This document shows, piece by piece, positions 12,716 to 60,475 of a stretch of 62,723 bases of DNA. The stretch covers positions 1 through 62,723 of the IMG/VR virus record IMGVR_UViG_3300044700_000299; one strand, 5' to 3'. Each line of letters begins with the position of its first letter. The first letter of the stretch is position 1. The position numbers and the translations under genes are program-made. The stretch comes from a virus (Duplodnaviria > Caudoviricetes). The notes beneath the pieces are model-generated. The model did no database searches, was not told the origin of the DNA, and saw only the letters and a list, made by a program, of their open reading frames with translations.

Positions 12716-12851
12716 ATTATTTAATGAATTGGAACGTGAAAAGTTACAGTTAATTAAAAATATAAAACAACAAACTAAAGAGGATATTTTACCTAAAATA
12801 CCTGAAAAAAAATCATTATGGAAGAGAATTATAAAAGTGTTGATGGGATAA
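12648..12851 (+). CDS. Hypothetical small basic protein
   Basis: Fills the gap between neighbours; ends SLWKRIIKVLMG. Confidence 0.5.
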   Translation: MTMMTPKNQLTKEERLLERDRSKLFNELEREKLQLIKNIKQQTKEDILPKIPEKKSLWKRIIKVLMG

Positions 12852-13084
12852 TTGAGAAACTAGCATTGATTAGTGATGCGGTTGACTCATTATTTCCTGA
12901 AGGTAGAAGTGCGGTTGTTTTCCAATTGAAGGATGAAGAGTTTAAAAAAGTTCAAAGTAATTTTAGAGAAATTGATATGAGTCACAAACAATTTAAAATT
13001 GATATCTCTGGAGTTGAGTTTATTTTTTTAGAGGAAACGTCGTTGACTGACGAAATAGATACTGTTTCGGATAACCAAGATTAA
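12818..13084 (+). CDS. Hypothetical protein
   Basis: ORF; 3' end overlaps a convergent gene. Confidence 0.6.
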   Translation: MEENYKSVDGIIEKLALISDAVDSLFPEGRSAVVFQLKDEEFKKVQSNFREIDMSHKQFKIDISGVEFIFLEETSLTDEIDTVSDNQD

Positions 13085-22882: not shown

Positions 22883-22940
22883 ATTAAATATTTTACATAA
22901 TTAATATTCAATTAATTTTAGACTCTAAATAGTTAAACAA

Positions 22941-22968
22941 AAAATGGGAGTCACTGACCCCCATTTTT
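22941..22968. terminator. Intrinsic terminator hairpin
   Basis: AAAAATGGG-agtcactgacc-CCCATTTTT. Confidence 0.65.
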
Positions 22969-22986
22969 ATAGAATTTCTTTACACC

Positions 22987-23130
22987 TTACCTTTTTGTAT
23001 AGTATTTTTCAACCACTTTTTTAATTGATTCTTGAATCGTTTGATTCTGAGGTTGAGGTTGAGGTTGAGGTTGAGCCCCTTGTTGTGGTTGTGGTGCTTG
23101 ATTTCCACCGTTTTTACATCCGCATCCCAT
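22987..23130 (-). CDS. 47-aa MGCGCK/(PQ)n peptide, not in ORF track
   Basis: MGCGCKNGGNQAPQPQQGAQPQPQPQPQNQTIQESIKKVVEKYYTKR; TATTTAT (minus strand) at 23161-23167; terminator downstream. Confidence 0.75.
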   Translation of the reverse strand: MGCGCKNGGNQAPQPQQGAQPQPQPQPQNQTIQESIKKVVEKYYTKR

Positions 23131-23232
23131 TGTTTTGTTTGTTTTAAAGTTTATTCATCAATAAATATCTGACAAACAACTTAATTGTAAATAATAGATA
23201 ATTATTAATAGAATTAATTGATATTTATTGAT

Positions 23233-27825: not shown

Positions 27826-28251
27826 ATGGCAAATACATCATTAAACACACAACCAATTTATACGGCATCGGCGGATACCCAATGGATTGGTTCTGCAACA
27901 ACCGCGAATACAACTAAAGATTTAACATCAGGAACCGCTTATTTGGCGTTTACCGCATCTTCAACAGGTGGTGGTTATGTCCAAAGAATGAGATTCAGAG
28001 CGTTAGGAACTAACGTAGCGACAGTTGCTAGGGTTTTCATTAACAATGGTGGTGTAACAGGAACTACAGCAAATAATATTCTATGGGATGAAATTTCATT
28101 ACCTGCAGTAACAATTTCTGAAGTTTCAGCTTTACCTACTTATGAATTACCATTAAACTTTGCATTACCCCCATCTTACAGGTTATTTGTAACAATCGCA
28201 ACAGTAGTTGCTGCAGGATATGCGATAACAACAATAGGTGGAAAATATTAA
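27826..28251 (+). CDS. Virion structural protein, tail-associated
   Basis: T/A-rich beta protein in the fibre cluster. Confidence 0.6.
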   Translation: MANTSLNTQPIYTASADTQWIGSATTANTTKDLTSGTAYLAFTASSTGGGYVQRMRFRALGTNVATVARVFINNGGVTGTTANNILWDEISLPAVTISEVSALPTYELPLNFALPPSYRLFVTIATVVAAGYAITTIGGKY

Positions 28252-28254
28252 GAT

Positions 28255-28434
28255 ATGAACGAATATTATTTATGTGAATTCGAATATGGGTATGAAGGTC
28301 AATTCTACCAAGAAATATTCAATAATCAGGTAGTTAGATACGCTGATTTAGATGGTAATACCTTAACACTTGAAGGTGAATATGGTTGTAGAATAATAAA
28401 TTTAAATCCTGAAAGACCCGTTTGGGCTAATTAA
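28255..28434 (+). CDS. 59-aa protein, possible fibre chaperone, not in ORF track
   Basis: MNEYYLCEFEYGYEGQFYQE...PERPVWAN fills the gap exactly. Confidence 0.65.
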   Translation: MNEYYLCEFEYGYEGQFYQEIFNNQVVRYADLDGNTLTLEGEYGCRIINLNPERPVWAN

Positions 28435-28436
28435 TT

Positions 28437-29360
28437 ATGGGTATAGATTATAATCATATAAATGATAATAGTTTAAAAAACCAAGTTTTTTATTTTGCAG
28501 GAACTGATGCTTGGCAAACTTGGATTAAACCACCTAATTGTAAATTCGTTAACTTCTTCTTAGTTGGAGGTGGTGCGGGTGGACGTGGTGGGGCGACAGG
28601 TGCCGCATCAACACGAAGTGGTGGTAACGGAGGTGGTTCAGCCGCGTATGCTTACATAACCGTTCCCGCTTTTAGTTTACCTGATATGTTATATATTCAA
28701 GTTGGTGGTGGTGGTGTTGGAGGAGCGTCAGGTAATGGTGCTGGTGGTGTTGGAGGTTTAAGTTATGTTTGTTCTATTCCTGATATTTCAACACGTTATA
28801 ATATTTTAATGAAAAGTGGAACATTAGGTGCGGGAACAACATTATCACAAAATGCTGGAACAATAATTGTTCAGGCGGATGTTATATTAGGTCAAGTTGG
28901 TTTACTTTCGGCGTATGCAGGTCAAGCCGGTGGTTTAGGTGGTTCATCAAGTGCTGCCGCAACTAACGTAACACCAACAGGTATTCCATTTACAGGTGGT
29001 GCGGGTGGTGCAGGTTGTAGTTCGGTTGGAACTTTAGGAACATCAGCAAGTGTTCTTGGAATTTTAAATTTCCCAACGATATCAGGTGGTACTAACACGG
29101 CAGTTCAGAGTGCTACCGCCAATCCGGGTAATAATGGATATTCGACAAGAGAAAACTTCATCGGACCAAATTTTAATACTCCAATGTTCTTTAGTGGTGG
29201 TGCGGGTGGTGGAGCCGCTTCACAAACTTTAGGTATTGGAGGTAAAGGTGGTGATGGTGCTTTCGGTTGTGGAGGTGGTGGTGGAGGAGCCGGTGGTAAC
29301 TCAACTGCGGGAATTGGTGGTCGTGGTGGTGACGGATTCGTTATGGTAACAGTTAGTTAA
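28437..29360 (+). CDS. Glycine-rich domain protein, paralogue 1
   Basis: TW.KP.N..FV....GGG.GG, GGAGGG, GG.GG.G.V. Confidence 0.8.
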   Translation: MGIDYNHINDNSLKNQVFYFAGTDAWQTWIKPPNCKFVNFFLVGGGAGGRGGATGAASTRSGGNGGGSAAYAYITVPAFSLPDMLYIQVGGGGVGGASGNGAGGVGGLSYVCSIPDISTRYNILMKSGTLGAGTTLSQNAGTIIVQADVILGQVGLLSAYAGQAGGLGGSSSAAATNVTPTGIPFTGGAGGAGCSSVGTLGTSASVLGILNFPTISGGTNTAVQSATANPGNNGYSTRENFIGPNFNTPMFFSGGAGGGAASQTLGIGGKGGDGAFGCGGGGGGAGGNSTAGIGGRGGDGFVMVTVS

Positions 29361-29363
29361 ATT

Positions 29364-30308
29364 ATGATAGATACTTTTAATATAGTTGACGGTAGTCAAA
29401 ACAGACAAGTTTTTTACGCCAATGGTGTGAATTCATTCTATACTTGGATTAAGCCTCAAAATTGTCAATTCGTTCATTTCTTCATACTCGGAGGAGGTGG
29501 AGGAGGTGGTGGTGGTAACAGTGGTGGTACTGCAACTGCGAGACGTGGAGGTGGTAGTGGTGGTTCATCGGCAGGTATGAACGCTTTAGTTCCCGCATCT
29601 TACTTACCTGACCACCTTGACATTCAAGTTGGTAGTGGTGGTTCTGCGGGAATTGGTGGAACTACTAACAGTAACGGTGGTTCAGGAACATTATCTTATG
29701 TTTTAGTCGCTCCTGACACAGGAAAAACCGCATCAAATGTTTTATATCAAAGTGGAACTGCGGCTGCGGGTGGTGGTGCTTCAGGATTAAATGGTGGAAC
29801 TGCGGGAACTCAAGGAACTCTTTGGAGTGAAACGACAGGTATCTTCTCTGAATTTAGTTTAGTGCCGGCATTTGATGGATTGGCGGGTGTTTTAGGTCAA
29901 ACAACACCAACACCGAACTCAATTACTATTAGTGGGATAACAACACCGGGAGCTGCGGGTGCGGGAACGAATGGTGGAACCGCTCTAGCGGGAGGTTCCG
30001 TAATTGCGGGTGGTAATATCCCTACGATGACAGGTGGACCTGCGGGTGGTTCAGCGACTAGTACAACACCAGGTGGTAATGGTAGTGGTGGTTATATGTC
30101 GTTTACTCCAAACACTAATGGATATTCATCTGACCCTTTGGTTTTCTTAGGAGGTGCGGGTGGAGGTTCATCTGATGGTGGACAAGGAGGACAAGGAGGA
30201 CACGGAGCCTATGGTAGTGGTGGAGGTGGCGGTGGAGCCGGAATAACTAACCAAGGTGGTAATGGTGGTAGAGGTGGTGACGGATTAGTCATAATAACAT
30301 ATTGGTAA
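29364..30308 (+). CDS. Glycine-rich domain protein, paralogue 2
   Basis: Same architecture; ends GGDGLVIITYW. Confidence 0.8.
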   Translation: MIDTFNIVDGSQNRQVFYANGVNSFYTWIKPQNCQFVHFFILGGGGGGGGGNSGGTATARRGGGSGGSSAGMNALVPASYLPDHLDIQVGSGGSAGIGGTTNSNGGSGTLSYVLVAPDTGKTASNVLYQSGTAAAGGGASGLNGGTAGTQGTLWSETTGIFSEFSLVPAFDGLAGVLGQTTPTPNSITISGITTPGAAGAGTNGGTALAGGSVIAGGNIPTMTGGPAGGSATSTTPGGNGSGGYMSFTPNTNGYSSDPLVFLGGAGGGSSDGGQGGQGGHGAYGSGGGGGGAGITNQGGNGGRGGDGLVIITYW

Positions 30309-30314
30309 ATAATA

Positions 30315-31274
30315 ATGATAGATATATTTAACTTAGCCGGTAAAGAAAATAGTAATCAAGTTTTTAGTGTTAACTCATCAGGTTCAACAGGTTGGCAAAC
30401 TTGGTCAAAACCAAATAACGCATCATTCGTTTATATTTTATGTATAGGTGGTGGTGCTGGCGGTGGTGGTGGTCGTGGAAATAGTAACAACTCAGGAGCA
30501 GGAGGTGGTGGAGGTGGTTCTTCTGCCTTCGCCGCAGGTCTTTTTCCCGCGTCATTATTACCTGACACATTATTCGTTCAAGTAGGTAGAGGTGGTGTCG
30601 GAGGTGCTGGTGGTATCGTTAATGGTAATGGTGGAACAGGTGGTAGTGGAGAACATTCTTATGTGTCAGTAACACCATCAACCTCAACTACTGCGGTATT
30701 AATGAAAAATGGTGATGTAGCCCCAACAGGTGGTGGTGGTGGAACATCATCAGTTATTGGTACGGCAGGAGCTGCGGGTACAATATGGACTTACTCAACT
30801 TCATTTATATTTCCTCAGTTAGGACAAGTAAATCCTGTTGCGGGTCAAATCGGTGTTGTTGGTGGTTCAAGTGCCGGTGGTAATGGTAACTCAATTACAT
30901 TAATATCACCTGTTTCTGCGGGTGCTAGTGGTGGTGGAAACTCTGCGGGTGGTGCAACTGCAAATGGTGGTAACATTACAGGTACAGGTATAATACCTTC
31001 AATTAGTGGTGGAACTGCAAATTCCGCAACAGTAATTGATGGTGGTCACGGAATGGGAGACCAAGTTGATGGTGCAGGAGGTAATACTGATACCCCATTA
31101 TTTTACACAGGTGGTGCTGGTGGTGGTTCATCAAGTACTGCGAGTAGAGTTGGTGGATTTGGAGGTGATGGAGGTCACGGTTGTGGTGGTGGTGGTGGAG
31201 GTTCCGCACAAAACGCTGCCGGTGGTGGAGGAGGTGATGGAGGTCACGGATTAGTCATTATTACTTGTTGGTAG
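30315..31274 (+). CDS. Glycine-rich domain protein, paralogue 3
   Basis: Same architecture; ends GGHGLVIITCW. Confidence 0.8.
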   Translation: MIDIFNLAGKENSNQVFSVNSSGSTGWQTWSKPNNASFVYILCIGGGAGGGGGRGNSNNSGAGGGGGGSSAFAAGLFPASLLPDTLFVQVGRGGVGGAGGIVNGNGGTGGSGEHSYVSVTPSTSTTAVLMKNGDVAPTGGGGGTSSVIGTAGAAGTIWTYSTSFIFPQLGQVNPVAGQIGVVGGSSAGGNGNSITLISPVSAGASGGGNSAGGATANGGNITGTGIIPSISGGTANSATVIDGGHGMGDQVDGAGGNTDTPLFYTGGAGGGSSSTASRVGGFGGDGGHGCGGGGGGSAQNAAGGGGGDGGHGLVIITCW

Positions 31275-31303
31275 TTGACATTCCAACTCAAAAAATTTAT
31301 TAT
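31275..31303 (+). promoter_or_regulatory. sigma70-like promoter
   Basis: TTGACA-N17-TATTAT just upstream of ATG 31309. Confidence 0.55.
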
Positions 31304-31308
31304 TAAAT

Positions 31309-32172
31309 ATGGAAAAATATATTGGAAAAATTATAAACGGTAGTTGTATTGATGTTATGTCAGAGATGCCAATAAACTCGGTTGACTTGATTGTCACATC
31401 ACCCCCATACGGAGTAGGTATTGCTTATGATGTTCACGATGATGATGTATATTTTGAGGAGTATTTGAACTTCACTAAAGAATGGTTAACACAAGCCTAT
31501 CAAATATTAAAGGATGATGGTAGGATTGCTATCAACATACCTTATGAGATAAACAGACAAGACAAAGGTGGTAGAATTTTCTTTTGTTCTGAAGTTTATC
31601 AAGTAATGAAAAGAATCGGATATAAGTTCTTCGGTATTGTTGATTTGGAAGAAGACTCACCTCATCGAAGTAAAACAACGGCTTGGGGTAGTTGGATGTC
31701 CCCTTCAAGTCCTTACATTTATAATCCAAAAGAGTGTGTGATATTAGCATACAAACACAAACATATTAAAACAGTAAAAGGGGAACCACAATGGAAAGGT
31801 GTCCCAACAGAGATTGAACAAGAAGATGGAACAGTTAAGAAAAAAGTCGTCTATGATGAAATGGATAAGAAAGAGTTTATGGAATTGGTTTTTGGTCAGT
31901 GGAAATATTTTGCGGACACTAAATCGTTAACTAAAGCGACTTTCTCTATGGACATTCCAACAAAGGCCATAAAAATATTATCATATAAAAATGATGTTAT
32001 ATTGGACCCATTCGCGGGTTCAGGGACAAGTATGGTTGCTGCTGAGATATTAGATAGAAGATGGGTTGGTATTGAATTATCCCCAAATTATGCTGAGATA
32101 GCACGGAATCGGGTCCAAGGATTTGTGGAACAAAAGAAACAATCTGTAATGGAATTTGAAAAGGGGGAATAA
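31309..32172 (+). CDS. DNA N4-cytosine/N6-adenine methyltransferase (beta class)
   Basis: VDLIVTSPPY near N-terminus, LDPFAGSGT near C-terminus. Confidence 0.9.
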   Translation: MEKYIGKIINGSCIDVMSEMPINSVDLIVTSPPYGVGIAYDVHDDDVYFEEYLNFTKEWLTQAYQILKDDGRIAINIPYEINRQDKGGRIFFCSEVYQVMKRIGYKFFGIVDLEEDSPHRSKTTAWGSWMSPSSPYIYNPKECVILAYKHKHIKTVKGEPQWKGVPTEIEQEDGTVKKKVVYDEMDKKEFMELVFGQWKYFADTKSLTKATFSMDIPTKAIKILSYKNDVILDPFAGSGTSMVAAEILDRRWVGIELSPNYAEIARNRVQGFVEQKKQSVMEFEKGE

Positions 32173-35793: not shown

Positions 35794-35822
35794 TATTATA
35801 TTTGTTGAAATAATTAAAGGAT

Positions 35823-35936
35823 ATGAAAACAATAGAGATAACACCACAAGAATTAAGAATGGCGACAAGACCTAACATCTATCGTAATAAGAAAAAATAT
35901 TTTAGAAAGAGTAAGCACAAGAACACAGAAAATTAG
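35823..35936 (+). CDS. 37-aa basic peptide, ArfA-like C-terminal motif, not in ORF track
   Basis: MKTIEITPQELRMATRPNIYRNKKKYFRKSKHKNTEN; own TTTG-N19-TATATTTG promoter (35774-35804). Confidence 0.65.
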   Translation: MKTIEITPQELRMATRPNIYRNKKKYFRKSKHKNTEN

Positions 35937-35966
35937 TATATTTGTTGAACATTTAAAATTTGAGAT

Positions 35967-39809: not shown

Positions 39810-40028
39810 ATGTTATACGAAAATGAAATTAAAAAATTAGATGTGTATTTTGAAGGTAAGTATCTTATTGATGAGGAGAAAGACCTTGAGTTAAAGAAAA
39901 TACTAAGTTACGTTATTGAAGAACGTAAAAAGTTCAAACAGATGGTAAAAGAAACTCCAAACGATATGGATTTAGGTAAACTAGTGAGAAGTTATTATAG
40001 AAATTTAAATGAGAACGAAACGATTTAA
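39810..40028 (+). CDS. Hypothetical protein
   Basis: PND..LG..VR motif. Confidence 0.6.
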   Translation: MLYENEIKKLDVYFEGKYLIDEEKDLELKKILSYVIEERKKFKQMVKETPNDMDLGKLVRSYYRNLNENETI

Positions 40029-40218
40029 ATTAGATATACCTGAAAATATTAAAGGTATGACTTTGGACCGAGCAAAAATTGCGTGTATTACTGAAGGGTA
40101 TGTGTTACAAACAAAAGATAGTTCTATTTTAAGTATGGAATTACCTGAAACTTATATTGTTACAGTTACTGAACTTGATTCTGATGGTAAAATATTAAAT
40201 GCCAAGTACGGTAAATAA
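40009..40218 (+). CDS. Hypothetical protein
   Basis: ORF in operon. Confidence 0.55.
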   Translation: MRTKRFKLDIPENIKGMTLDRAKIACITEGYVLQTKDSSILSMELPETYIVTVTELDSDGKILNAKYGK

Positions 40219-40253
40219 GAGTATTCTACATATTTATAATAAAAGTTTATAAC

Positions 40254-40721
40254 ATGGAGAAAGTTTTTAGTAAAAAATCAATATTGAATAAAAGACTATT
40301 CGAACAGGAAGAGGAAAACGACGATACTAACGTTGAAAAATCTGAAGGTAAAGTAAGTGGGTCATTTGTTGATATCGTATCTGGAATGTTACATTCAAGA
40401 ACTCAAATACATATTTATCATTTACAAACTAAATCGTTTGCGGTTCATAAAGCCTTAAATGATTATTATGATGGTGTTGTTGATTTGTTTGACGGTTTGG
40501 TTGAATCATATCAAGGTAAACACGGAATAGTTGAGAACTACAAATGTGATGGTTATGATAATTACTCAAGTGTTAACAGTGCTATCGAATACTTACAGAA
40601 ATTGGATAAGACAATTGAAGGTTCAAGAAAATCTATCAAAGAAAGTTTTATTCAAAATCAGATAGACACAGTTCAGGAATTAATTTATTCAACTATTTAT
40701 AAGTTGAAATTCTTGGAATAA
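40254..40721 (+). CDS. Ferritin/Dps-like four-helix protein (DUF5856-like)
   Basis: Q.H.YH.QT.S.A.HKAL..YYD, D.L.E.YQG..G, YKL.FL; TATTTAT at 40231. Confidence 0.75.
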   Translation: MEKVFSKKSILNKRLFEQEEENDDTNVEKSEGKVSGSFVDIVSGMLHSRTQIHIYHLQTKSFAVHKALNDYYDGVVDLFDGLVESYQGKHGIVENYKCDGYDNYSSVNSAIEYLQKLDKTIEGSRKSIKESFIQNQIDTVQELIYSTIYKLKFLE

Positions 40722-40748
40722 TATACTTTTCATAGTATTTTAATTTTT

Positions 40749-40778
40749 ACCCCAATTTTAATTAGTTGGGGTTTTTTT
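40749..40778. terminator. ACCCCAA-type terminator
   Basis: ACCCCAA...TTGGGGTTTTTTT. Confidence 0.75.
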
Positions 40779-40791
40779 ATATCTTTGTTTT

Positions 40792-41118
40792 ATGGATGAC
40801 AAAGGTAAAGATAAGTTAGCTGAATTACTTGTTGATAAGACAAAATTGGTCGTAAATTACGAAGGGCTTAACTTCATCCAATTCAAGATTGAATTTCCAT
40901 TTTTAAAAGGTGATGTGAATAAAGATTACTATTTAAAACTTGAGTTGGAAAAAGATTCTTGGAATTTTGGAATGCCACCAGGTTATCACTTAATTACTTA
41001 TTTAGAAACTTTATTCAAAATTAAAGGTGAATCAATAATAAGTGAGATTCGTGAATTATATATTGATAAATTTGAAGAAAGAATTAAAAATTTACGAGAA
41101 TACCTATTGACAGATTGA
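40792..41118 (+). CDS. Hypothetical protein
   Basis: TATCTTTG 4 nt before ATG. Confidence 0.65.
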   Translation: MDDKGKDKLAELLVDKTKLVVNYEGLNFIQFKIEFPFLKGDVNKDYYLKLELEKDSWNFGMPPGYHLITYLETLFKIKGESIISEIRELYIDKFEERIKNLREYLLTD

Positions 41119-41135
41119 AATAAAATCTATATGAT
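41107..41135 (+). promoter_or_regulatory. sigma70-like promoter
   Basis: TTGACA-N17-TATGAT. Confidence 0.55.
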
Positions 41136-41161
41136 TGTTATATAAGAAAAAAGATAATAAT

Positions 41162-41596
41162 ATGACAATCAAACAGGCGTTAAAGGAGAAGAACCGATTG
41201 ATTAAAGCAATCGACGATGAGTTCAAAAAAGTTTACTCATACAACTCAATAGATGAGGGTAATGTTAGACCATACTCAACGGTTACGGCATTAGAAAACA
41301 TAATGACTTTGGAAGAAGGTCTAATCGACATCAAAACAAAAATCCATAGAGCAAATATGGGTGTTTACAATAAGATTTTCAGATTGTCTGAATTGAAATC
41401 TTTGGCTAAGAAACTTAACCAAATTGATTGTAGTGAAGGTAAAGTAACTGACAGATACCTTAGAGGTGCTGAACCATCAATTAAAACCGCTGAAGTATCA
41501 GTTGTTGATAGAGACTCACGAGTTAAAATGATTGAAGAAGAGATTGAACAATTGCAAGAAGAGTTAGATACTCACAACGCAACGACATCAATATAA
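41162..41596 (+). CDS. DIP1984/DUF6847 (septicolysin-like) coiled-coil protein
   Basis: M.I.QAL....RL, EG..P, I..AN, C-terminal E...LQ..LD..NATT.I. Confidence 0.7.
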   Translation: MTIKQALKEKNRLIKAIDDEFKKVYSYNSIDEGNVRPYSTVTALENIMTLEEGLIDIKTKIHRANMGVYNKIFRLSELKSLAKKLNQIDCSEGKVTDRYLRGAEPSIKTAEVSVVDRDSRVKMIEEEIEQLQEELDTHNATTSI

Positions 41597-41769
41597 TCGG
41601 ACTTGTTGTTGACTAACAAATATATTACTATTAGACATTCAGTGATGTTCGATGTTTGTGAATGTGATGCCGACTCAAAGTTCAACTATCAAAAGTATTC
41701 AAAGTTCAACCATTAAACTTTAAAACTCATCTAACCTGGTATTTGTTTTTCGACACAATAAGATTATAT
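41591..41769 (+). ncRNA. Candidate structured RNA with 7-nt periodic TYAA array
   Basis: Long closing stem 41591-41623 with 41739-41769; inner ACATTCA/TGAATGT helix; array at 41675-41730. Confidence 0.6.
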
Positions 41770-41771
41770 CT

Positions 41772-41801
41772 CCCCCCATCTGTTAAAGGTGGGGGTTTTT
41801 T
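41772..41801 (+). terminator. Intrinsic terminator
   Basis: CCCCCATC...GGTGGGGGTTTTTT. Confidence 0.8.
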
Positions 41802-41833
41802 AATTATATTTGTATTTAGTAATATTTATTGAT

Positions 41834-42514
41834 ATGGAAGACAAAAAATATATTGAAATCTTTAACAAATACTATAAAAACGCACTTGATATTGAGGGTA
41901 TCAAATTTAAGTTGATAGGTATCAATAACCCTGGCGTCGGTAACACATTAATCAATGAACAATTGGTTTTTATAATGTCAAATGATGCTGATTTATCTTA
42001 TAATAGAATTGCGTTAGAAGAATTAATTAAGGAGAAAATTCAAAAGTTTAACAGGTTATTTAGTTTGGGGAATTTTGGTTTTGACCAAGTTGAAATTAAA
42101 AATACTGATGGAGTTCATATTGGTAAAGGTGATAATGTTGGGGAATTAATAAGTGGTGTATTTGAGAGGGTTAATAAATTAGTGACTTATAAATATTATT
42201 CAACTGACTATCGTCAAGAAGTAATAGATATGTATATGGTTAAACACATTTCATTTACATATGAAATGACAGGTGATTTTATACGGTTTGTAAATAAAGT
42301 AAGACCACTAAAAGGTTATGTGGTTTCATTTAACACTAAACAACCTCTTGAAGGGCTTGACCTTGAGGATGCTGAATATGTATATCAGGAAGGTTTTAGA
42401 GGTTCGTATGAGGAAACTGAAATTAATTATCTGGATATTGATATGATTGAATTTCCAGAAAGATTCGTTGTTAGTGAATTCCAATCAACTTATGTATATA
42501 CTGAGTTTATATAA
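41834..42514 (+). CDS. Hypothetical protein
   Basis: TATTTAT-TGAT-ATG start. Confidence 0.65.
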   Translation: MEDKKYIEIFNKYYKNALDIEGIKFKLIGINNPGVGNTLINEQLVFIMSNDADLSYNRIALEELIKEKIQKFNRLFSLGNFGFDQVEIKNTDGVHIGKGDNVGELISGVFERVNKLVTYKYYSTDYRQEVIDMYMVKHISFTYEMTGDFIRFVNKVRPLKGYVVSFNTKQPLEGLDLEDAEYVYQEGFRGSYEETEINYLDIDMIEFPERFVVSEFQSTYVYTEFI

Positions 42515-42540
42515 AAAAACCCCCAAGATAGGGGGTTTTT
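42513..42540. terminator. Bidirectional terminator
   Basis: AAAAAAACCCCC-aagata-GGGGGTTTTT between convergent genes. Confidence 0.8.
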
Positions 42541-42542
42541 AG

Positions 42543-43151
42543 TTATTTGATATCTGTTGATTCTAATAATGTGTAACTGAATTTGTTACCGTGAATTTTA
42601 GCAGCTTTTTTACAGATTGACATAAAGACATCAAAGTCTTTTACTCTTTTGAATACCTGACATCCTTCAGACCAATTTTCAACCCAAGTTGAATCAATAC
42701 CAGCTTTGTGTATGTTAATACCAAACATACCATTATCCTTAACAGTTTCTTCAAACAGTAAGTTTTTGTTAGCATCTCTCCAAACATCAACTTTATTTAA
42801 TCTTTGACAAAGTGCTTCGTATTTCCCCTGATGTTTATCAATTGCCCAAGTTGTACGATATTGATTAGGCACTAATCTAGCGACTCCTTTATTGTTGTGA
42901 AATTCCATAACACCTTTTTTACCTGGGTCAGTTGTTGCGTTCCAACAATAGAATTGCCAAACACCTTTCTCATCTTTAAATGAAATTGTGATATGGTCAT
43001 CAAATACGTTAGTTACCTTTTTAGCAACTGATGGTGAATTGTTTCTAACACCAATGATATTAACATCGTAAGATTTATTAGCATCATCGTTAAACCACTT
43101 ATATCCTTTTGATTTAAGTGCTGATTCAATCTGTTCTCTTGTATAAGACAT
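42543..43151 (-). CDS. Putative peptidoglycan hydrolase/endolysin (L,D-transpeptidase-like His/Cys motif)
   Basis: NIIGVRN, FDD, ATTDPG, GINIH...WSEGCQV; TATTTAT (minus strand) at 43181. Confidence 0.65.
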   Translation of the reverse strand: MSYTREQIESALKSKGYKWFNDDANKSYDVNIIGVRNNSPSVAKKVTNVFDDHITISFKDEKGVWQFYCWNATTDPGKKGVMEFHNNKGVARLVPNQYRTTWAIDKHQGKYEALCQRLNKVDVWRDANKNLLFEETVKDNGMFGINIHKAGIDSTWVENWSEGCQVFKRVKDFDVFMSICKKAAKIHGNKFSYTLLESTDIK

Positions 43152-43302
43152 AATTAATTTTTTTTTTGTTTATTTTAATTATAAATATGTGGTCAGGTAT
43201 ATTTATAAGTTTAACCCCCGAAAAGATATGAACGAGACGATTTTTGACTATGATGATGATGAGTTTGGAGACCACACTATCTGCACATTTTAATGTGAAT
43301 GG

Positions 43303-43471
43303 TATGGATGAAACTATTGGAAAATTGATTAAGAAGATAATTGATAAACAATTAAACTCGCCGCAGTGTGGCGAGTTTTCATCAGAAATTGATTATGATA
43401 AAATCATAAAAGATTTAAAGAAATTGAAAAAAAGGTTAAGTACTGGTATGGTTATTGATGATGATAAGTAA
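43303..43471 (+). CDS. Small hypothetical protein (start uncertain)
   Basis: MDETIGKLIKK... portion of the track ORF. Confidence 0.4.
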
Positions 43472-43579
43472 AACTTATATTATGATACACAATACAGAAG
43501 CCATCGTTCAAATTACACTGTCATCAGTTCTAACATTATTAGTTATCGCTCATTTAGTGATTACTAAAGTGAGGGGGAA

Positions 43580-50655: not shown

Positions 50656-50660
50656 GAGAT

Positions 50661-50975
50661 ATGAATATAGTTAATAAAACATTAATGGTTGATATTGAGA
50701 ACGATATTACATTAGAGAACGGGTCAATAACAATGACTGTTATACATCAAGCGTACATTGGTCCAAGTCACGTTGATATTGAGTTGGCTGATTATTATAA
50801 CGTTAAATTCTTAGGTAAGGAAATTACATTCTCTAAGTTAAGAGAAACATTAAAAAATATTGACATCGACATAGATTTATTAGTTGGTGAGAAAACTGAT
50901 AAATTATTCACAGATGAAGATATCGAATATTTACAATCATTATATTCAAGTATTAAATCACCATATACGAAATAA
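50661..50975 (+). CDS. Hypothetical protein
   Basis: Clean ORF. Confidence 0.6.
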   Translation: MNIVNKTLMVDIENDITLENGSITMTVIHQAYIGPSHVDIELADYYNVKFLGKEITFSKLRETLKNIDIDIDLLVGEKTDKLFTDEDIEYLQSLYSSIKSPYTK

Positions 50976-60200: not shown

Positions 60201-60215
60201 ATTTTATCTCAAGTG

Positions 60216-60245
60216 TTGTGGGTTAACAAAAGATAGTTATATTTG
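60216..60245 (+). promoter_or_regulatory. Bacteroidota-type promoter of the repeat RNA
   Basis: TTG-N19-TATATTTG. Confidence 0.65.
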
Positions 60246-60249
60246 TAGT

Positions 60250-60475
60250 GTGTGAGTGTCACACAGGATGTCAGAACTCCTAACTTACAATCTGACCACT
60301 AAGTATCAGGTGAGGTGATACGGGTTGATTACCCCAACTTAATAAGTGAAACAATCAGGATGTCAGAACTCCTAACTTACAATCTGACCACTAAGAATCG
60401 GGTGAGGCGGTTCGGGTTAAACACCTCAATCCAAAGGATGAAATTTAAACCCCCAAGTAACATTGGGGGTTTTTT
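60250..60475 (+). ncRNA. Candidate ncRNA made of two structured repeats, 92-nt period
   Basis: 40-nt identical block at 60264-60303 and 60356-60395, then covarying hairpins; flanked by promoter and terminator. Confidence 0.65.
60447..60475 (+). terminator. ACCCCCAA-type terminator
   Basis: AAACCCCCAA-gtaaca-TTGGGGGTTTTTT. Confidence 0.8.

What the first reader, a model, noticed from the sequence alone, without database searches (positions are those of the whole stretch)
41107..41801. DIP1984/DUF6847-like gene followed by a structured RNA with a 7-nt-periodic array
Seen: a self-contained unit of promoter (TTGACA-N17-TATGAT), a 144-aa coiled-coil gene, about 175 nt of non-coding sequence and a terminator, in a genome with very short spacers. 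The non-coding part is closed by a long stem: ATATAATC (41591, includes the stop codon) with GATTATAT (41762), TTGTTGT with ACAATAA, AACAAATAT with GTATTTGTT. Inside are an ACATTCA/TGAATGT helix and an unpaired array TCAAAGT|TCAACTA|TCAAAAGTAT|TCAAAGT|TCAACCA|TTAAACT|TTAAAAC|TCA (41675-41729). Inference: regularly spaced UYAA sites suggest binding by an oligomeric protein, one repeat per subunit as with TRAP, so this may be an undescribed protein-RNA module (ribonucleoprotein, RNA antitoxin or autoregulatory element).
Basis: partly seen in the sequence, partly recalled or inferred. Interest (0 to 1): 0.82.

Follow-up and report, generated by a model that had tools for sequence, protein, structure and literature searches.

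The report
Jumbo-phage protein with heptad-repeat RNA partner
A small, highly conserved jumbo-phage gene is always followed by a previously undescribed ~180-base RNA, a long stem clamping a loop of 7-base repeats; the pair is strongly expressed in lakes and rivers and probably forms a protein-RNA particle of unknown role.

Summary
The window is a fragment of an uncultured ~300-kb freshwater jumbo phage. Gene 41162-41596 encodes a 144-aa helical protein with the DIP1984 (PDB 3KDQ) fold, a remote relative of DUF6847. From its stop codon runs a ~179-nt non-coding RNA (41591-41769): a long interrupted closing stem, 3-4 GAU units, then 6-8 heptads UYAAnnn ending UUAAAACUC. The same gene-RNA pair recurs downstream of homologues down to about 30% protein identity, with no other shared neighbour. 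The stem changes sequence but keeps pairing (13 of 13 pairs with compensatory changes). The 7-nt phase is conserved (133 of 257 neighbour spacings are exactly 7). There is one copy per genome in four near-complete 308-324-kb phage genomes. Contigs from four metatranscriptome runs cover the unit at far higher depth than its flanks. No Rfam family matches. The protein is predicted to self-associate as a symmetric dimer. Function is inferred, not shown: most likely an RNP in which the heptad lattice binds several copies of the protein. A lattice for another single-strand binder, such as the phages' gp32-type SSB (7-nt site size), is the main rival. A type III toxin-antitoxin reading is not supported.

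The parts
41107..41135 (+). sigma-70-type promoter TTGACA-N17-TATGAT of the unit
   Evidence: Best site of the scan, 11 of 12 matches. A TTGAC(A/T)-N16-18-TATnnT site lies just upstream of the gene in the close relatives and, by eye, in 9 of 12 printed distant loci (none seen in L015, L046, L066).
41162..41596 (+). 144-aa DIP1984-fold (DUF6847-like) helical protein gene
   Evidence: ORF. AF2 model with pLDDT 96. 3kdq_A is the top fold match at Z 12.5. The family has 1060 50%-identity clusters at E<=1e-3. Symmetric homodimer predicted, ipSAE 0.68 against best control 0.02.
41591..41769 (+). about 179-nt non-coding RNA, bounded by the outermost pairs of the closing stem P1; it begins 3 nt before the stop codon
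   Evidence: Fold. Boundaries from arm duplexes. CM R1 match at 41614-41754. Sequence-profile core hit at 41649-41728, E 5.7e-14, the only one in the window. No Rfam family and no tRNA or tmRNA.
41591..41635 (+). 5' arm of the interrupted closing stem P1 (AUAUAAUC, UUGU, GUUGA, AACAAAUAU, UUAGA)
   Evidence: Covariation.
41642..41669 (+). block of four GAU/GAA units spaced 6-9 nt apart
   Evidence: 2.9 GAU per 40 nt against 0.88 in shuffles over 55 RNAs; spacing is 6-8 nt in 69 of 104 neighbour pairs.
41675..41728 (+). heptad array: seven UYAAnnn units ending UUAAAACUC
   Evidence: Natural variants in metatranscriptome contigs fall mostly on heptad positions 5-7 (table 3).
41730..41769 (+). 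3' arm of P1 (UCUAA, GUAUUUGUU, UCGACACAA, GAUUAUAU)
41773..41801 (+). intrinsic terminator (9-bp stem with 6 G-C pairs, then a T run)
   Evidence: Present in the window's clade, but no comparable terminator is visible after the RNA in several other lineages (L052, L053, L066, L072).

Best explanation
The unit is an autonomous, strongly expressed transcription unit of a freshwater jumbo phage. It makes two products that work together: a small helical DIP1984-fold protein that self-associates, and a stable ~180-nt RNA derived from the 3' end of the same transcript. The RNA is one giant hairpin. A 25-30-bp interrupted stem clamps a loop of roughly 100 nt or more (94-138 nt in the window, depending on which inner pairs form). 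The loop is largely unpaired, A/U-rich and G-poor, and presents about 10 phased short motifs: 3-4 GAU, then 6-8 UYAA every 7 nt. The most likely mechanism is that this lattice binds several copies of the co-encoded protein side by side, about 7 nt per binding site, giving a defined ribonucleoprotein. The RNA would then either scaffold the protein or buffer (sponge) it. Shown: that the RNA family exists, its stem, its periodicity, its exclusive linkage to the gene, its single copy per genome, and its presence in RNA libraries. Inferred: the protein-RNA contact, the stoichiometry and the biological role.
For: Linkage, by sequence profile: a core profile finds its best hit 46-266 nt downstream of the stop, on the same strand, in 66 of 78 homologue loci at E<0.01. 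Another 8 loci have weaker hits at the same place and 4 have none (L022, L087, L088, L092). L022, L087 and L092 show degenerate arrays by eye; L088 was not printed separately.

Linkage, across divergence: the pair persists at 48% (L015), about 30% (L022, L023) and in a further branch (8 of 9 loci L230-L238). No other neighbour is shared with L015, L022 or L023.

Linkage, reverse test: of 118 IMG/VR sites matching a 16-mer of the array, 4 carry the full RNA core and all 4 have the gene upstream. The other 114 have neither. None is discordant.

Copy number: one copy per genome in 4 of 4 near-complete 308-324-kb genomes.

Stem: cognate arms pair at -26.6 kcal/mol against -18.5 (sd 5.4) for non-cognate arms, with a median rank of 3 among 54. 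On the CM alignment 13 of 13 pairs show compensatory changes, and the covariation score is 0.380 against 0.158 in shuffles (0 of 500 reach it) and at most 0.153 when slid. On a MAFFT alignment 12 of 17 pairs do.

Periodicity.

Expression: contigs from four RNA libraries cover 41163-41797 at word depth 24-140 against 0-5 in the flanks. One contig spans 41587-41796 at depth 114, against 23 for the CDS contig of the same run.

Protein: it is more conserved than its neighbours, 87-96% against 30-97%, and is predicted to self-associate.
Against: No result here shows that the protein touches the RNA. The protein has no known RNA-binding fold. Most invariant residues (N28, K58, E77) lie in the predicted dimer interface rather than on a free surface. 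The predicted assembly is a two-fold dimer, not a ring with one site per repeat. Adjacent genes are inherited together, so linkage alone cannot separate 'partners' from 'co-transcribed passengers'. In some lineages another small ORF sits between the gene and the RNA: a Zn-ribbon-like ORF in L051, L056, L059 and L070, and a lysine-rich ORF in L023. The window protein itself fails the curated DUF6847 and DIP1984 cut-offs. The contig depths are one figure per contig and cannot strictly rank parts of a transcript. The CM alignment used for one search is fitted to the model's structure.
Confidence: 0.45

Rival explanations
1. The RNA is a lattice or decoy for a different single-strand-binding factor, and the DIP1984-fold protein is only co-transcribed or an accessory. 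The prime candidate is the phage's own gp32-type SSB. That protein occupies about 7 nt per monomer and, in T4, is titrated by an mRNA operator built from a structured nucleation element plus an unstructured run of UUAAA/UAAA repeats. A 55-57-nt array of 7-8 heptads would seat about 8 monomers. A host factor that binds unstructured A-rich or UC-containing RNA is a variant of this rival.
For: Passages of PMC535899 describe the T4 operator as a pseudoknot plus more than 40 nt of less-structured RNA carrying UUAAA/UAAA repeats, bound cooperatively. Passages of PMC4627071 give a gp32 site size of about 7 nt, so 56 nt holds 8 monomers. All 4 of 4 near-complete relatives encode a PF08804 gp32 above the cut-off. 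Their gene-32 leaders carry UUAA repeats; L229 has four at an 8-nt period. The array is about 57 nt long and G-poor (10% G).
Against: The RNA is never next to gene 32; in the complete genomes they lie tens of kb apart. It is invariably next to the DIP1984-fold gene. Position 2 of the heptad is C in 77% of units, whereas the gp32 operator motif is UUAAA/UAAA. The GAU block has no counterpart in the gp32 operator. gp32 was not found in the window itself, which is only a 21% fragment.
Confidence: 0.25
2. The element acts in cis. It would be a 3'-UTR structure that protects the abundant mRNA from 3' exonucleases, is a processing (for example RNase III) site, or feeds back on translation of the upstream ORF, since the stop codon sits inside the first helix.
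For: P1 begins -4 to +10 nt from the stop of the preceding ORF in 49 of 55 unique RNAs, and at the stop of the inserted Zn-ribbon ORF in the L051-type loci. The RNA always lies on the same strand downstream of the gene. A long stem at a 3' end is a classical stabiliser (established knowledge).
Against: A stabiliser needs only a stem. It does not explain conservation of about 10 phased motifs in a loop of ~100 nt or more across lineages whose stems share no sequence. The RNA can be separated from the gene by another ORF. RNA-only contigs start at 41587 in two studies, and one is deeper than the CDS contig (a weak hint).
Confidence: 0.12
3. It is a type III toxin-antitoxin-like pair, in which the repeat RNA neutralises a toxic protein.
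For: It is a protein gene with an adjacent repeat-containing RNA in one transcription unit, which is only a formal likeness.
Against: There was no PADLOC hit for 5 of 6 family members, and one weak LmuB-like hit (E 9e-4) for the sixth. The fold is a helical bundle like 3KDQ, and no endoribonuclease appears among the structural matches. The repeats are 7 nt and lie downstream of the gene, not about 36-nt units upstream of it separated by a terminator (type III layout recalled from the literature; no paper was read). It is a single-copy, highly conserved gene of large lytic-type phage genomes.
Confidence: 0.04
4. The repeats act at the DNA level, as iterons or a protein-binding array, and the apparent RNA structure is incidental.
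For: Short phased A/T-rich repeats can be DNA-binding sites.
Against: There is strand-specific placement behind the gene in every locus. Compensatory changes keep a 25-30-bp stem. Cover in RNA libraries is high relative to the flanks. The unit is bounded by a promoter and terminator.
Confidence: 0.02

Closest known systems
T4 gene 32 translational operator (gp32 autoregulation)
   Same: A structured element sits next to a 40-60-nt unstructured A/U-rich run carrying repeated (U)UAAA-type motifs, read by a protein that binds cooperatively with a 7-nt site size (PMC535899 and PMC4627071, passages read). It is a phage element, and the relatives encode gp32.
   Different: The T4 operator lies in the 5' leader of gene 32 and overlaps its ribosome-binding site. 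This element is a 3'-end RNA behind an unrelated gene, its loop is clamped by a long stem, the main motif is UCAA rather than UUAAA, and it has an extra GAU block.
TRAP-binding trp leader RNA (Bacillus)
   Same: Many short repeats at a fixed small spacing in unpaired RNA, each thought to contact one protein subunit.
   Different: TRAP sites are (G/U)AG triplets with 2-3-nt spacers, bound by an 11-mer beta-sheet ring. Here the repeats are 4-nt motifs at a 7-nt period, and the candidate protein is helical and predicted to be dimeric.
CsrB/RsmZ-type protein-sponge sRNAs
   Same: An RNA carrying many copies of a short motif that could titrate a dimeric RNA-binding protein.
   Different: Those motifs are GGA in hairpin loops (recalled), and the RNA genes are not fused to the protein's gene. 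No GGA array is present here.
DIP1984 / DUF6847 ('septicolysin'-labelled) protein family, PDB 3KDQ
   Same: The same fold over the full length. Family members hit PF20935.
   Different: That family has no assigned function. The only paper holding 'DIP1984', 'DUF6847' or 'PF20935' in the library is a genome survey, and only its search listing was seen. The window's clade is viral and falls below the curated cut-offs. Whether bacterial members have any such RNA could not be tested.
Type III toxin-antitoxin systems (ToxIN and relatives)
   Same: A protein gene plus an adjacent repeat RNA.
   Different: See the rival explanation above: repeat size, order, protein fold and genomic setting all differ.

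Membership tests
DUF6847 (PF20935) / DIP1984 family (NF038048) | Score above the curated HMM cut-off | tested here: not met
   For the window protein, PF20935 is not listed even at E<=10. NF038048 scores 15.3 bits against a cut-off of 70, E 0.017, though aligned in register over residues 5-105. Of 60 family members, 20 hit PF20935 at E<=1e-3.
DUF6847 (PF20935) / DIP1984 family (NF038048) | Fold of the structural prototype (PDB 3KDQ, C. diphtheriae) | tested here: met
   3kdq_A is the top match: Z 12.5, rmsd 2.9 A, 140 of 144 residues, with the next entry at Z 9.2. Foldseek gives TM 0.70 and probability 1.00. The profile of A2 against PDB sequences gives 3kdq at E 0.16 over the full length.
Any Rfam 15 RNA family | Covariance-model score at or above the gathering threshold | tested here: not met
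   There were 0 matches in the whole window at gathering thresholds. In 41500-41850 at E<=10 only 9 sub-threshold hits appeared (best 21 bits against 52 needed), to unrelated sRNA and miRNA models.
tRNA / tmRNA | Cloverleaf or tmRNA detected by ARAGORN | tested here: not met
   0 genes in the window.
Type III toxin-antitoxin | Toxin is a ToxN/AbiQ-type endoribonuclease | tested here: inconclusive
   No PADLOC family matched the window protein or 4 further members; one weak LmuB-like hit appeared. The structural matches are helical bundles. A missing match does not exclude the family.
Type III toxin-antitoxin | Antitoxin is a tandem array of about 34-36-nt repeats upstream of the toxin gene, with a terminator between (recalled) | tested here: not met
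   The sequence shows 7-nt units downstream of the gene.
gp32-type translational operator | Structured nucleation element plus an unstructured run of (U)UAAA repeats | tested here: met
   A stem plus a 55-57-nt G-poor array of UYAA(A) heptads. The definition was taken from passages of PMC535899.
gp32-type translational operator | Lies in the 5' leader of the SSB gene and overlaps its start | tested here: not met
   The RNA follows the DIP1984-fold gene. Gene 32 lies elsewhere in the complete relatives.
TRAP-type RNA target | (G/U)AG triplets with 2-3-nt spacers, bound by a beta-sheet undecamer (recalled) | tested here: not met
   The motif is UYAA at a 7-nt period. The protein is helical.

The most novel reading that the evidence does not exclude
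This would be a new class of phage ribonucleoprotein. Its RNA is a stem-clamped loop displaying a phased 7-nt lattice of about 10 sites. The lattice would assemble a fixed number of DIP1984-fold dimers into a defined particle, giving the first function for the orphan DIP1984/DUF6847 ('septicolysin'-labelled) fold: a sequence-specific single-stranded-RNA binder.

A still bolder variant is not excluded. Read as N-U-(C/U)AA-A-A, the heptads loosely resemble 7-nt tRNA loops (an anticodon loop of tRNA-Leu CAA/UAA, or a T loop). The module also sits beside same-strand tRNA genes in 10 of 57 loci. The particle could therefore act as a decoy or handler for a tRNA-directed host or phage factor.
Probability: 0.3. 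Interest if true: 0.88.

Novelty: new variant of a known kind. Interest (0 to 1): 0.78.

Why it matters
RNAs that carry phased short repeats for protein binding are few and have been very instructive (the TRAP leader, the gp32 operator, Csr/Rsm sponges). This one is widespread: 247 confirmed loci in IMG/VR from one scan, in a protein family of 1060 50%-identity clusters. It is single-copy in 300-kb phage genomes, better conserved than its neighbours, and among the most highly represented stretches of the phage in river and lake metatranscriptomes. It matches no Rfam family and is tied to a protein fold that has had a crystal structure since 2009 but no function. The architecture makes sharp, cheap predictions about stoichiometry, phase dependence and motif dependence. 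These can be tested in vitro without culturing the phage. Confirming them would give the orphan fold a function and identify an abundant new viral RNA.

Tried and rejected
- **Cultured phages.** BLASTN of the unit and of 20 kb around it found no match. tblastn with the window protein and with the L023 protein found only two uncultured huge-phage records. No cultured model phage was found.
- **Bacterial genomes and plasmids.**
  - The genome-contig scan gave 2 loci, both MAG contigs.
  - PF20935 in 400 genomes of one class gave 1 hit, inside an 897-aa frame and probably spurious.
  - tblastn of P0239 against plasmids gave nothing.
  - Whether bacterial DIP1984 genes carry such an RNA therefore stays open.
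- **Global alignment.** RNAalifold on a MAFFT alignment of all 55 RNAs gave no structure. This is an alignment failure, because the stems share no sequence. It was solved with arm-duplex tests, a subgroup alignment and a covariance model.
- **Innermost helix.** A helix directly flanking the arrays is not supported: cognate -3.4 against non-cognate -3.1 kcal/mol, p = 0.065.
- **Mini-arrays elsewhere.** Short TYAA arrays elsewhere in the window, as possible targets, are not enriched: 6 against 4.1 +/- 2.4 in shuffles.
- **Fused forms.** No longer fused forms of the protein were found (weak evidence).
- **T4 comparison.** The T4 stable RNAs rnaC and rnaD show no likeness by eye. T4 trna.3 is not homologous (hhalign probability 0.1).
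- **Protein atlas.** The search added only the automatic label 'putative septicolysin' for a bacterial DUF6847 cluster.
- **Distant scans.** A P0254 scan of IMG/VR found no relative. CM R1 missed 14 of 67 sources at E<=0.01; nine of those had a sequence-profile core hit at E<0.01.
- **Tool availability.** The supplements of PMC10690425 (10,006 candidate viral structured RNAs, 29-151 nt) could not be read, so part of this RNA may be listed there unnamed. Only passages of its main text were read.
Full report
**What the window is.** The window is a whole IMG/VR virus record of 62,723 bases. CheckV estimates it as 21% complete, which implies a genome of about 300 kb. It has about 30% G+C, phage-type genes (SbcC-like nuclease, tail-fibre assembly, endolysin-like), and no nucleotide match among 50,697 GenBank phage records. 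By a crude ORF call the median intergenic gap is 20 nt, and only 6 gaps exceed 150 nt among 105 ORFs. The gap after the gene in question is one of them.

**The observation.**
- The promoter at 41107-41135 is the best sigma-70-like site in 40000-43500, matching 11 of 12.
- The 144-aa ORF is 41162-41596.
- The terminator is 41773-41795 plus a T run.
- The 221 nt from 41585 fold into a long closing stem around a largely open interior, at -51.3 kcal/mol against -37.7 +/- 4.1 for shuffles (z = -3.3).
- ARAGORN finds nothing in the window.
- Rfam 15 finds nothing at gathering thresholds, and only sub-threshold noise in 41500-41850.

**The protein.** Pfam gives only weak coiled-coil noise for the window protein. 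NCBIfam gives DIP1984_fam at 15.3 bits, against a cut-off of 70, though aligned in register. The family is nevertheless large:
- 574 proteins at E<=1e-3 among 624 candidates in the 90%-clustered set; two members at 69% identity carry PF20935.
- 1060 clusters at 50% identity (344 at E<=1e-10), nearly all 140-150 aa.
- Of 60 diverse members, 20 hit PF20935 (DUF6847) at E<=1e-3.

An AlphaFold2 model built on that alignment has pLDDT 96 and consists of four long helices plus a small beta-hairpin. Its best solved relative by far is 3KDQ, the function-unknown protein of Corynebacterium diphtheriae. Foldseek gives TM 0.70 and probability 1.00. VIA-align gives Z 12.5, rmsd 2.9 A over 140 residues, with the next entry at 9.2. 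The protein atlas places it among mostly viral clusters; a bacterial DUF6847 cluster there is automatically labelled 'putative septicolysin'.

Four copies co-folded give a symmetric dimer interface (residues 21-120 on both chains). The ipSAE is 0.68 against 0.02 for the best of 3 controls, the runs agree in at least 95% of contacts, and the partner pLDDT is at least 88. The tool notes that the mark was reached by 20 of 30 solved homomers and 1 of 23 solved monomers, that the calibration used two copies, and that a pass may reflect a solved look-alike such as 3KDQ. Several invariant residues (N28, K58, E77) lie in that interface. The conserved N-terminal ALKxKNKL and C-terminal LQxELDxHNAxTxI segments mostly do not, and are the obvious candidates for a functional surface. 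That last point is inference.

**The RNA is conserved and tied to the gene.**
- A first IMG/VR scan gave 20 loci and a second gave 247 confirmed relatives, of which the best 80 were kept. Contigs reach 334 kb.
- In every close relative, and in the 48%-identical L015 group, the gene is followed by about 170 nt of non-coding sequence containing the same array.
- The two uncultured huge-phage records in GenBank (about 30% protein identity) show it too. This includes LR756511, where a small lysine-rich ORF separates gene and RNA.
- A sequence profile of the core (GAU block through UUAAAACUC) finds its best hit 46-266 nt downstream of the stop, on the same strand, in 66 of 78 loci with at least 250 nt of downstream sequence (E<0.01). 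There are 8 weaker hits at the same place and 4 misses. Three of the misses show a degenerate array by eye.
- A further, more distant branch shows it in 8 of 9 loci.
- None of the window's other nearby ORFs has a detectable homologue in L015, L022 or L023. Within the window's clade the protein is 87-96% identical, while neighbours range from 30 to 97%.
- The reverse test: 118 IMG/VR sites match TCAAANNTTAAAACTC. Of these, 4 have the full core and all 4 have the gene upstream; 114 have neither; none is discordant.
- In 1.33 Mb of fetched loci no locus has two core hits, and the window has exactly one (41649-41728, E 5.7e-14).
- A covariance model finds exactly one match in each of four 308-324-kb genomes that are 97-100% complete, each at the gene.

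**Structure.** The closing stem has entirely different sequences in different lineages but is always complementary (listing).
- *Alignment-free test.* For 55 unique RNAs the 5' flank pairs with its own 3' flank at -26.6 kcal/mol on average, against -18.5 (sd 5.4) with other RNAs' flanks. 43 of 55 have at most 7 better non-cognate partners among 54.
- *Subgroup MAFFT alignment.* In 17 sequences, 12 of 17 stem pairs show changes on both sides. The covariation score is 0.381 against 0.240 +/- 0.020 in shuffles (0 of 500 reach it).
- *Covariance model.* Model R1 matched 53 of 67 sources at the expected place, plus one partial extra hit. On its alignment 13 of 13 pairs show compensatory changes, 84.7% of cells are paired against 64.9 +/- 1.3, and the score is 0.380 against 0.158 (0 of 500) and at most 0.153 for slid partners. 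That alignment is fitted to the model, which favours the structure.

The RNA is 159-202 nt long and starts -4 to +10 nt from the stop codon in 49 of 55 unique RNAs; the other six follow an intervening small ORF or have shifted duplex boundaries. A helix directly flanking the arrays is not supported. Many lineages have a variable side hairpin between the stem and the GAU block.

**Periodicity.** In 55 arrays averaging 57 nt:
- TYAA occurs 5.7 times against 1.42 +/- 0.14 in shuffles.
- Neighbour spacing is 7 in 133 of 257 cases, 8 in 41, and 14 in 22, against about 1.7 per spacing in shuffles.
- Base identity peaks at lags 7 (0.448) and 14 (0.419).
- The heptad is U, C (77%) or U, A, A, then A (63%), A (53%), U (43%).
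- Upstream lie 2.9 GAU per 40 nt against 0.88 in shuffles, mostly 6-8 nt apart.
- Natural variants seen in RNA-library contigs fall mostly on heptad positions 5-7, and 1-2-nt indels occur in the variable part. That is expected for non-coding sequence (tables 3-4).

**Expression.** Twenty of 22 listed public runs hold part of the stretch, six of them RNA libraries. Contigs from four metatranscriptomic runs, each from a different study, cover 41163-41797 at word depths of 24-140, while the flanking genes have 0-5. In X18 a contig spans exactly 41587-41796 at depth 114 against 23 for the CDS contig. Contigs start at 41587 in X16 and X18. Contigs show presence, and their depths are one figure per contig. 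The higher level of the RNA part and a 5' end near 41587 are therefore only hints. The contrast with the flanks, however, argues against DNA carry-over. A TTGAC(A/T)-N16-18-TATnnT promoter just upstream of the gene is seen in the close relatives and, by eye, in 9 of 12 printed distant loci (none seen in L015, L046, L066). The terminator is not universal.

**How it most likely works.** The shown facts are as follows. There is a single-copy, autonomous, highly expressed unit. It has a self-associating helical protein. It has an RNA whose conserved features are a clamp stem and about 10 phased short motifs in unpaired, G-poor RNA. The two genes are exclusively linked across deep divergence.

The simplest mechanism is a specific RNP. 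The lattice would bind several protein copies, about 7 nt each, with the stem holding the loop closed. The RNA would either scaffold the protein or titrate it. I put this at 0.45.

The main rival (0.25) is that the lattice serves another single-strand binder. T4 gp32 occupies about 7 nt per monomer, so 56 nt holds 8 monomers (PMC4627071, passages). Its mRNA operator is a structured element followed by more than 40 nt with UUAAA/UAAA repeats (PMC535899, passages). All four complete relatives encode a gp32 whose leaders carry UUAA repeats. Against this rival, the RNA never neighbours gene 32, and its main motif is UCAA.

A purely cis-acting role (0.12) does not explain the loop. A type III toxin-antitoxin reading (0.04) fails on repeat size, gene order and fold. 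A DNA-level role (0.02) is contradicted by the covariation and by the RNA cover.

**Comparison and novelty.** No Rfam family matches. The words DUF6847, DIP1984 and PF20935 occur in one paper of the library, a genome survey of which only the search listing was seen. 'Septicolysin' occurs in 34 papers. The 25 listed, judged by title and abstract start only, are genome surveys and other unrelated studies, and none concerns the mechanism of this fold. A catalogue of 10,006 candidate viral structured RNAs (PMC10690425; passages of the main text read) reports motifs of 29-151 nt from IMG/VR. Its supplements are closed, so an unnamed partial overlap cannot be excluded.

In kind, this belongs with repeat-lattice protein-binding RNAs (the gp32 operator, the TRAP leader, Csr/Rsm sponges). 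It differs from each in motif, period, topology (a stem-clamped loop), position (the 3' end of its partner's mRNA) and candidate protein fold. I rate it a new variant of a known kind, with a real chance of being a new RNP class.

**Limits.** No protein-RNA contact was modelled or measured. The hosts are unknown: two homologue-bearing contigs sit in a Bacteroidetes MAG and a Polynucleobacter MAG.

Noticed in passing
L231, L232, L233, L238; L053, L064, L076, L089, L092, L093: In 10 of 57 loci scanned, same-strand tRNA genes lie within about 1.2 kb of the module. Examples are four tRNAs starting 15 nt after the RNA in L233, four just upstream of the gene in L053, and tRNA-Leu(UAA) three times. 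This suggests a recurrent placement at the edge of the phage tRNA cluster.
   Followed up: partly
L051, L056, L059, L070 (about 1640-1830 in each locus); L023 1990-2076: Some lineages have an extra small ORF between the gene and the RNA. One is a 62-aa CxxC...CxxC zinc-ribbon-like ORF whose stop again abuts the RNA's first helix. In LR756511 it is a 28-aa lysine-rich ORF.
   Followed up: no
L226-L229 (gene 32 loci of G403-G406): The relatives encode T4-type gp32, and the short leaders of these genes carry UUAA repeats. L229 has four at an 8-nt period, directly before the ATG. This suggests a conserved gp32 autoregulatory operator.
   Followed up: partly
L066, L072, L081: GAU block, just upstream of the heptad array: In one subgroup the GAU block reads CUGA-N5-UGAUGA. 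This resembles the D'/C' (K-loop) arrangement of archaeal box C/D RNAs (motif recalled from memory), so the GA dinucleotides might form sheared G-A pairs.
   Followed up: no
window 12716-13019, 22883-23232, 35794-35966, 50656-50913, 60201-60359: These are the only other intergenic gaps over 150 nt in a genome with a median gap of 20 nt. They may hold further RNAs or regulatory regions.
   Followed up: no
window 28000-32000: A G+C-rich island (0.42 against about 0.30 elsewhere) coincides with three consecutive ORFs of about 310 aa (28437-31274). The first has a weak tail-fibre-assembly hit.
   Followed up: no
window 40254-40721: A DUF5856 / phrog_858 gene, labelled 'starvation-inducible regulator' and Dps/ferritin-like, lies two genes upstream. 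It has its own terminator-like site at 40749-40772.
   Followed up: no
window 41802-41824: Upstream of the next gene the sequence TATATTTG resembles the Bacteroidota-type -7 promoter element TAnnTTTG (recalled). In contrast, the studied unit has a classical -35/-10 pair. The host phylum remains open.
   Followed up: no
L063 2784-2831: A partial second match to the RNA model (positions 124-172, E 0.0013, 19% G+C) lies about 950 nt downstream of the true RNA. It is probably A/T-rich chance.
   Followed up: no
L232 about 1555-1650: Just after the RNA there is a tRNA-like sequence that ARAGORN did not call, possibly a tRNA gene with an insertion.
   Followed up: no
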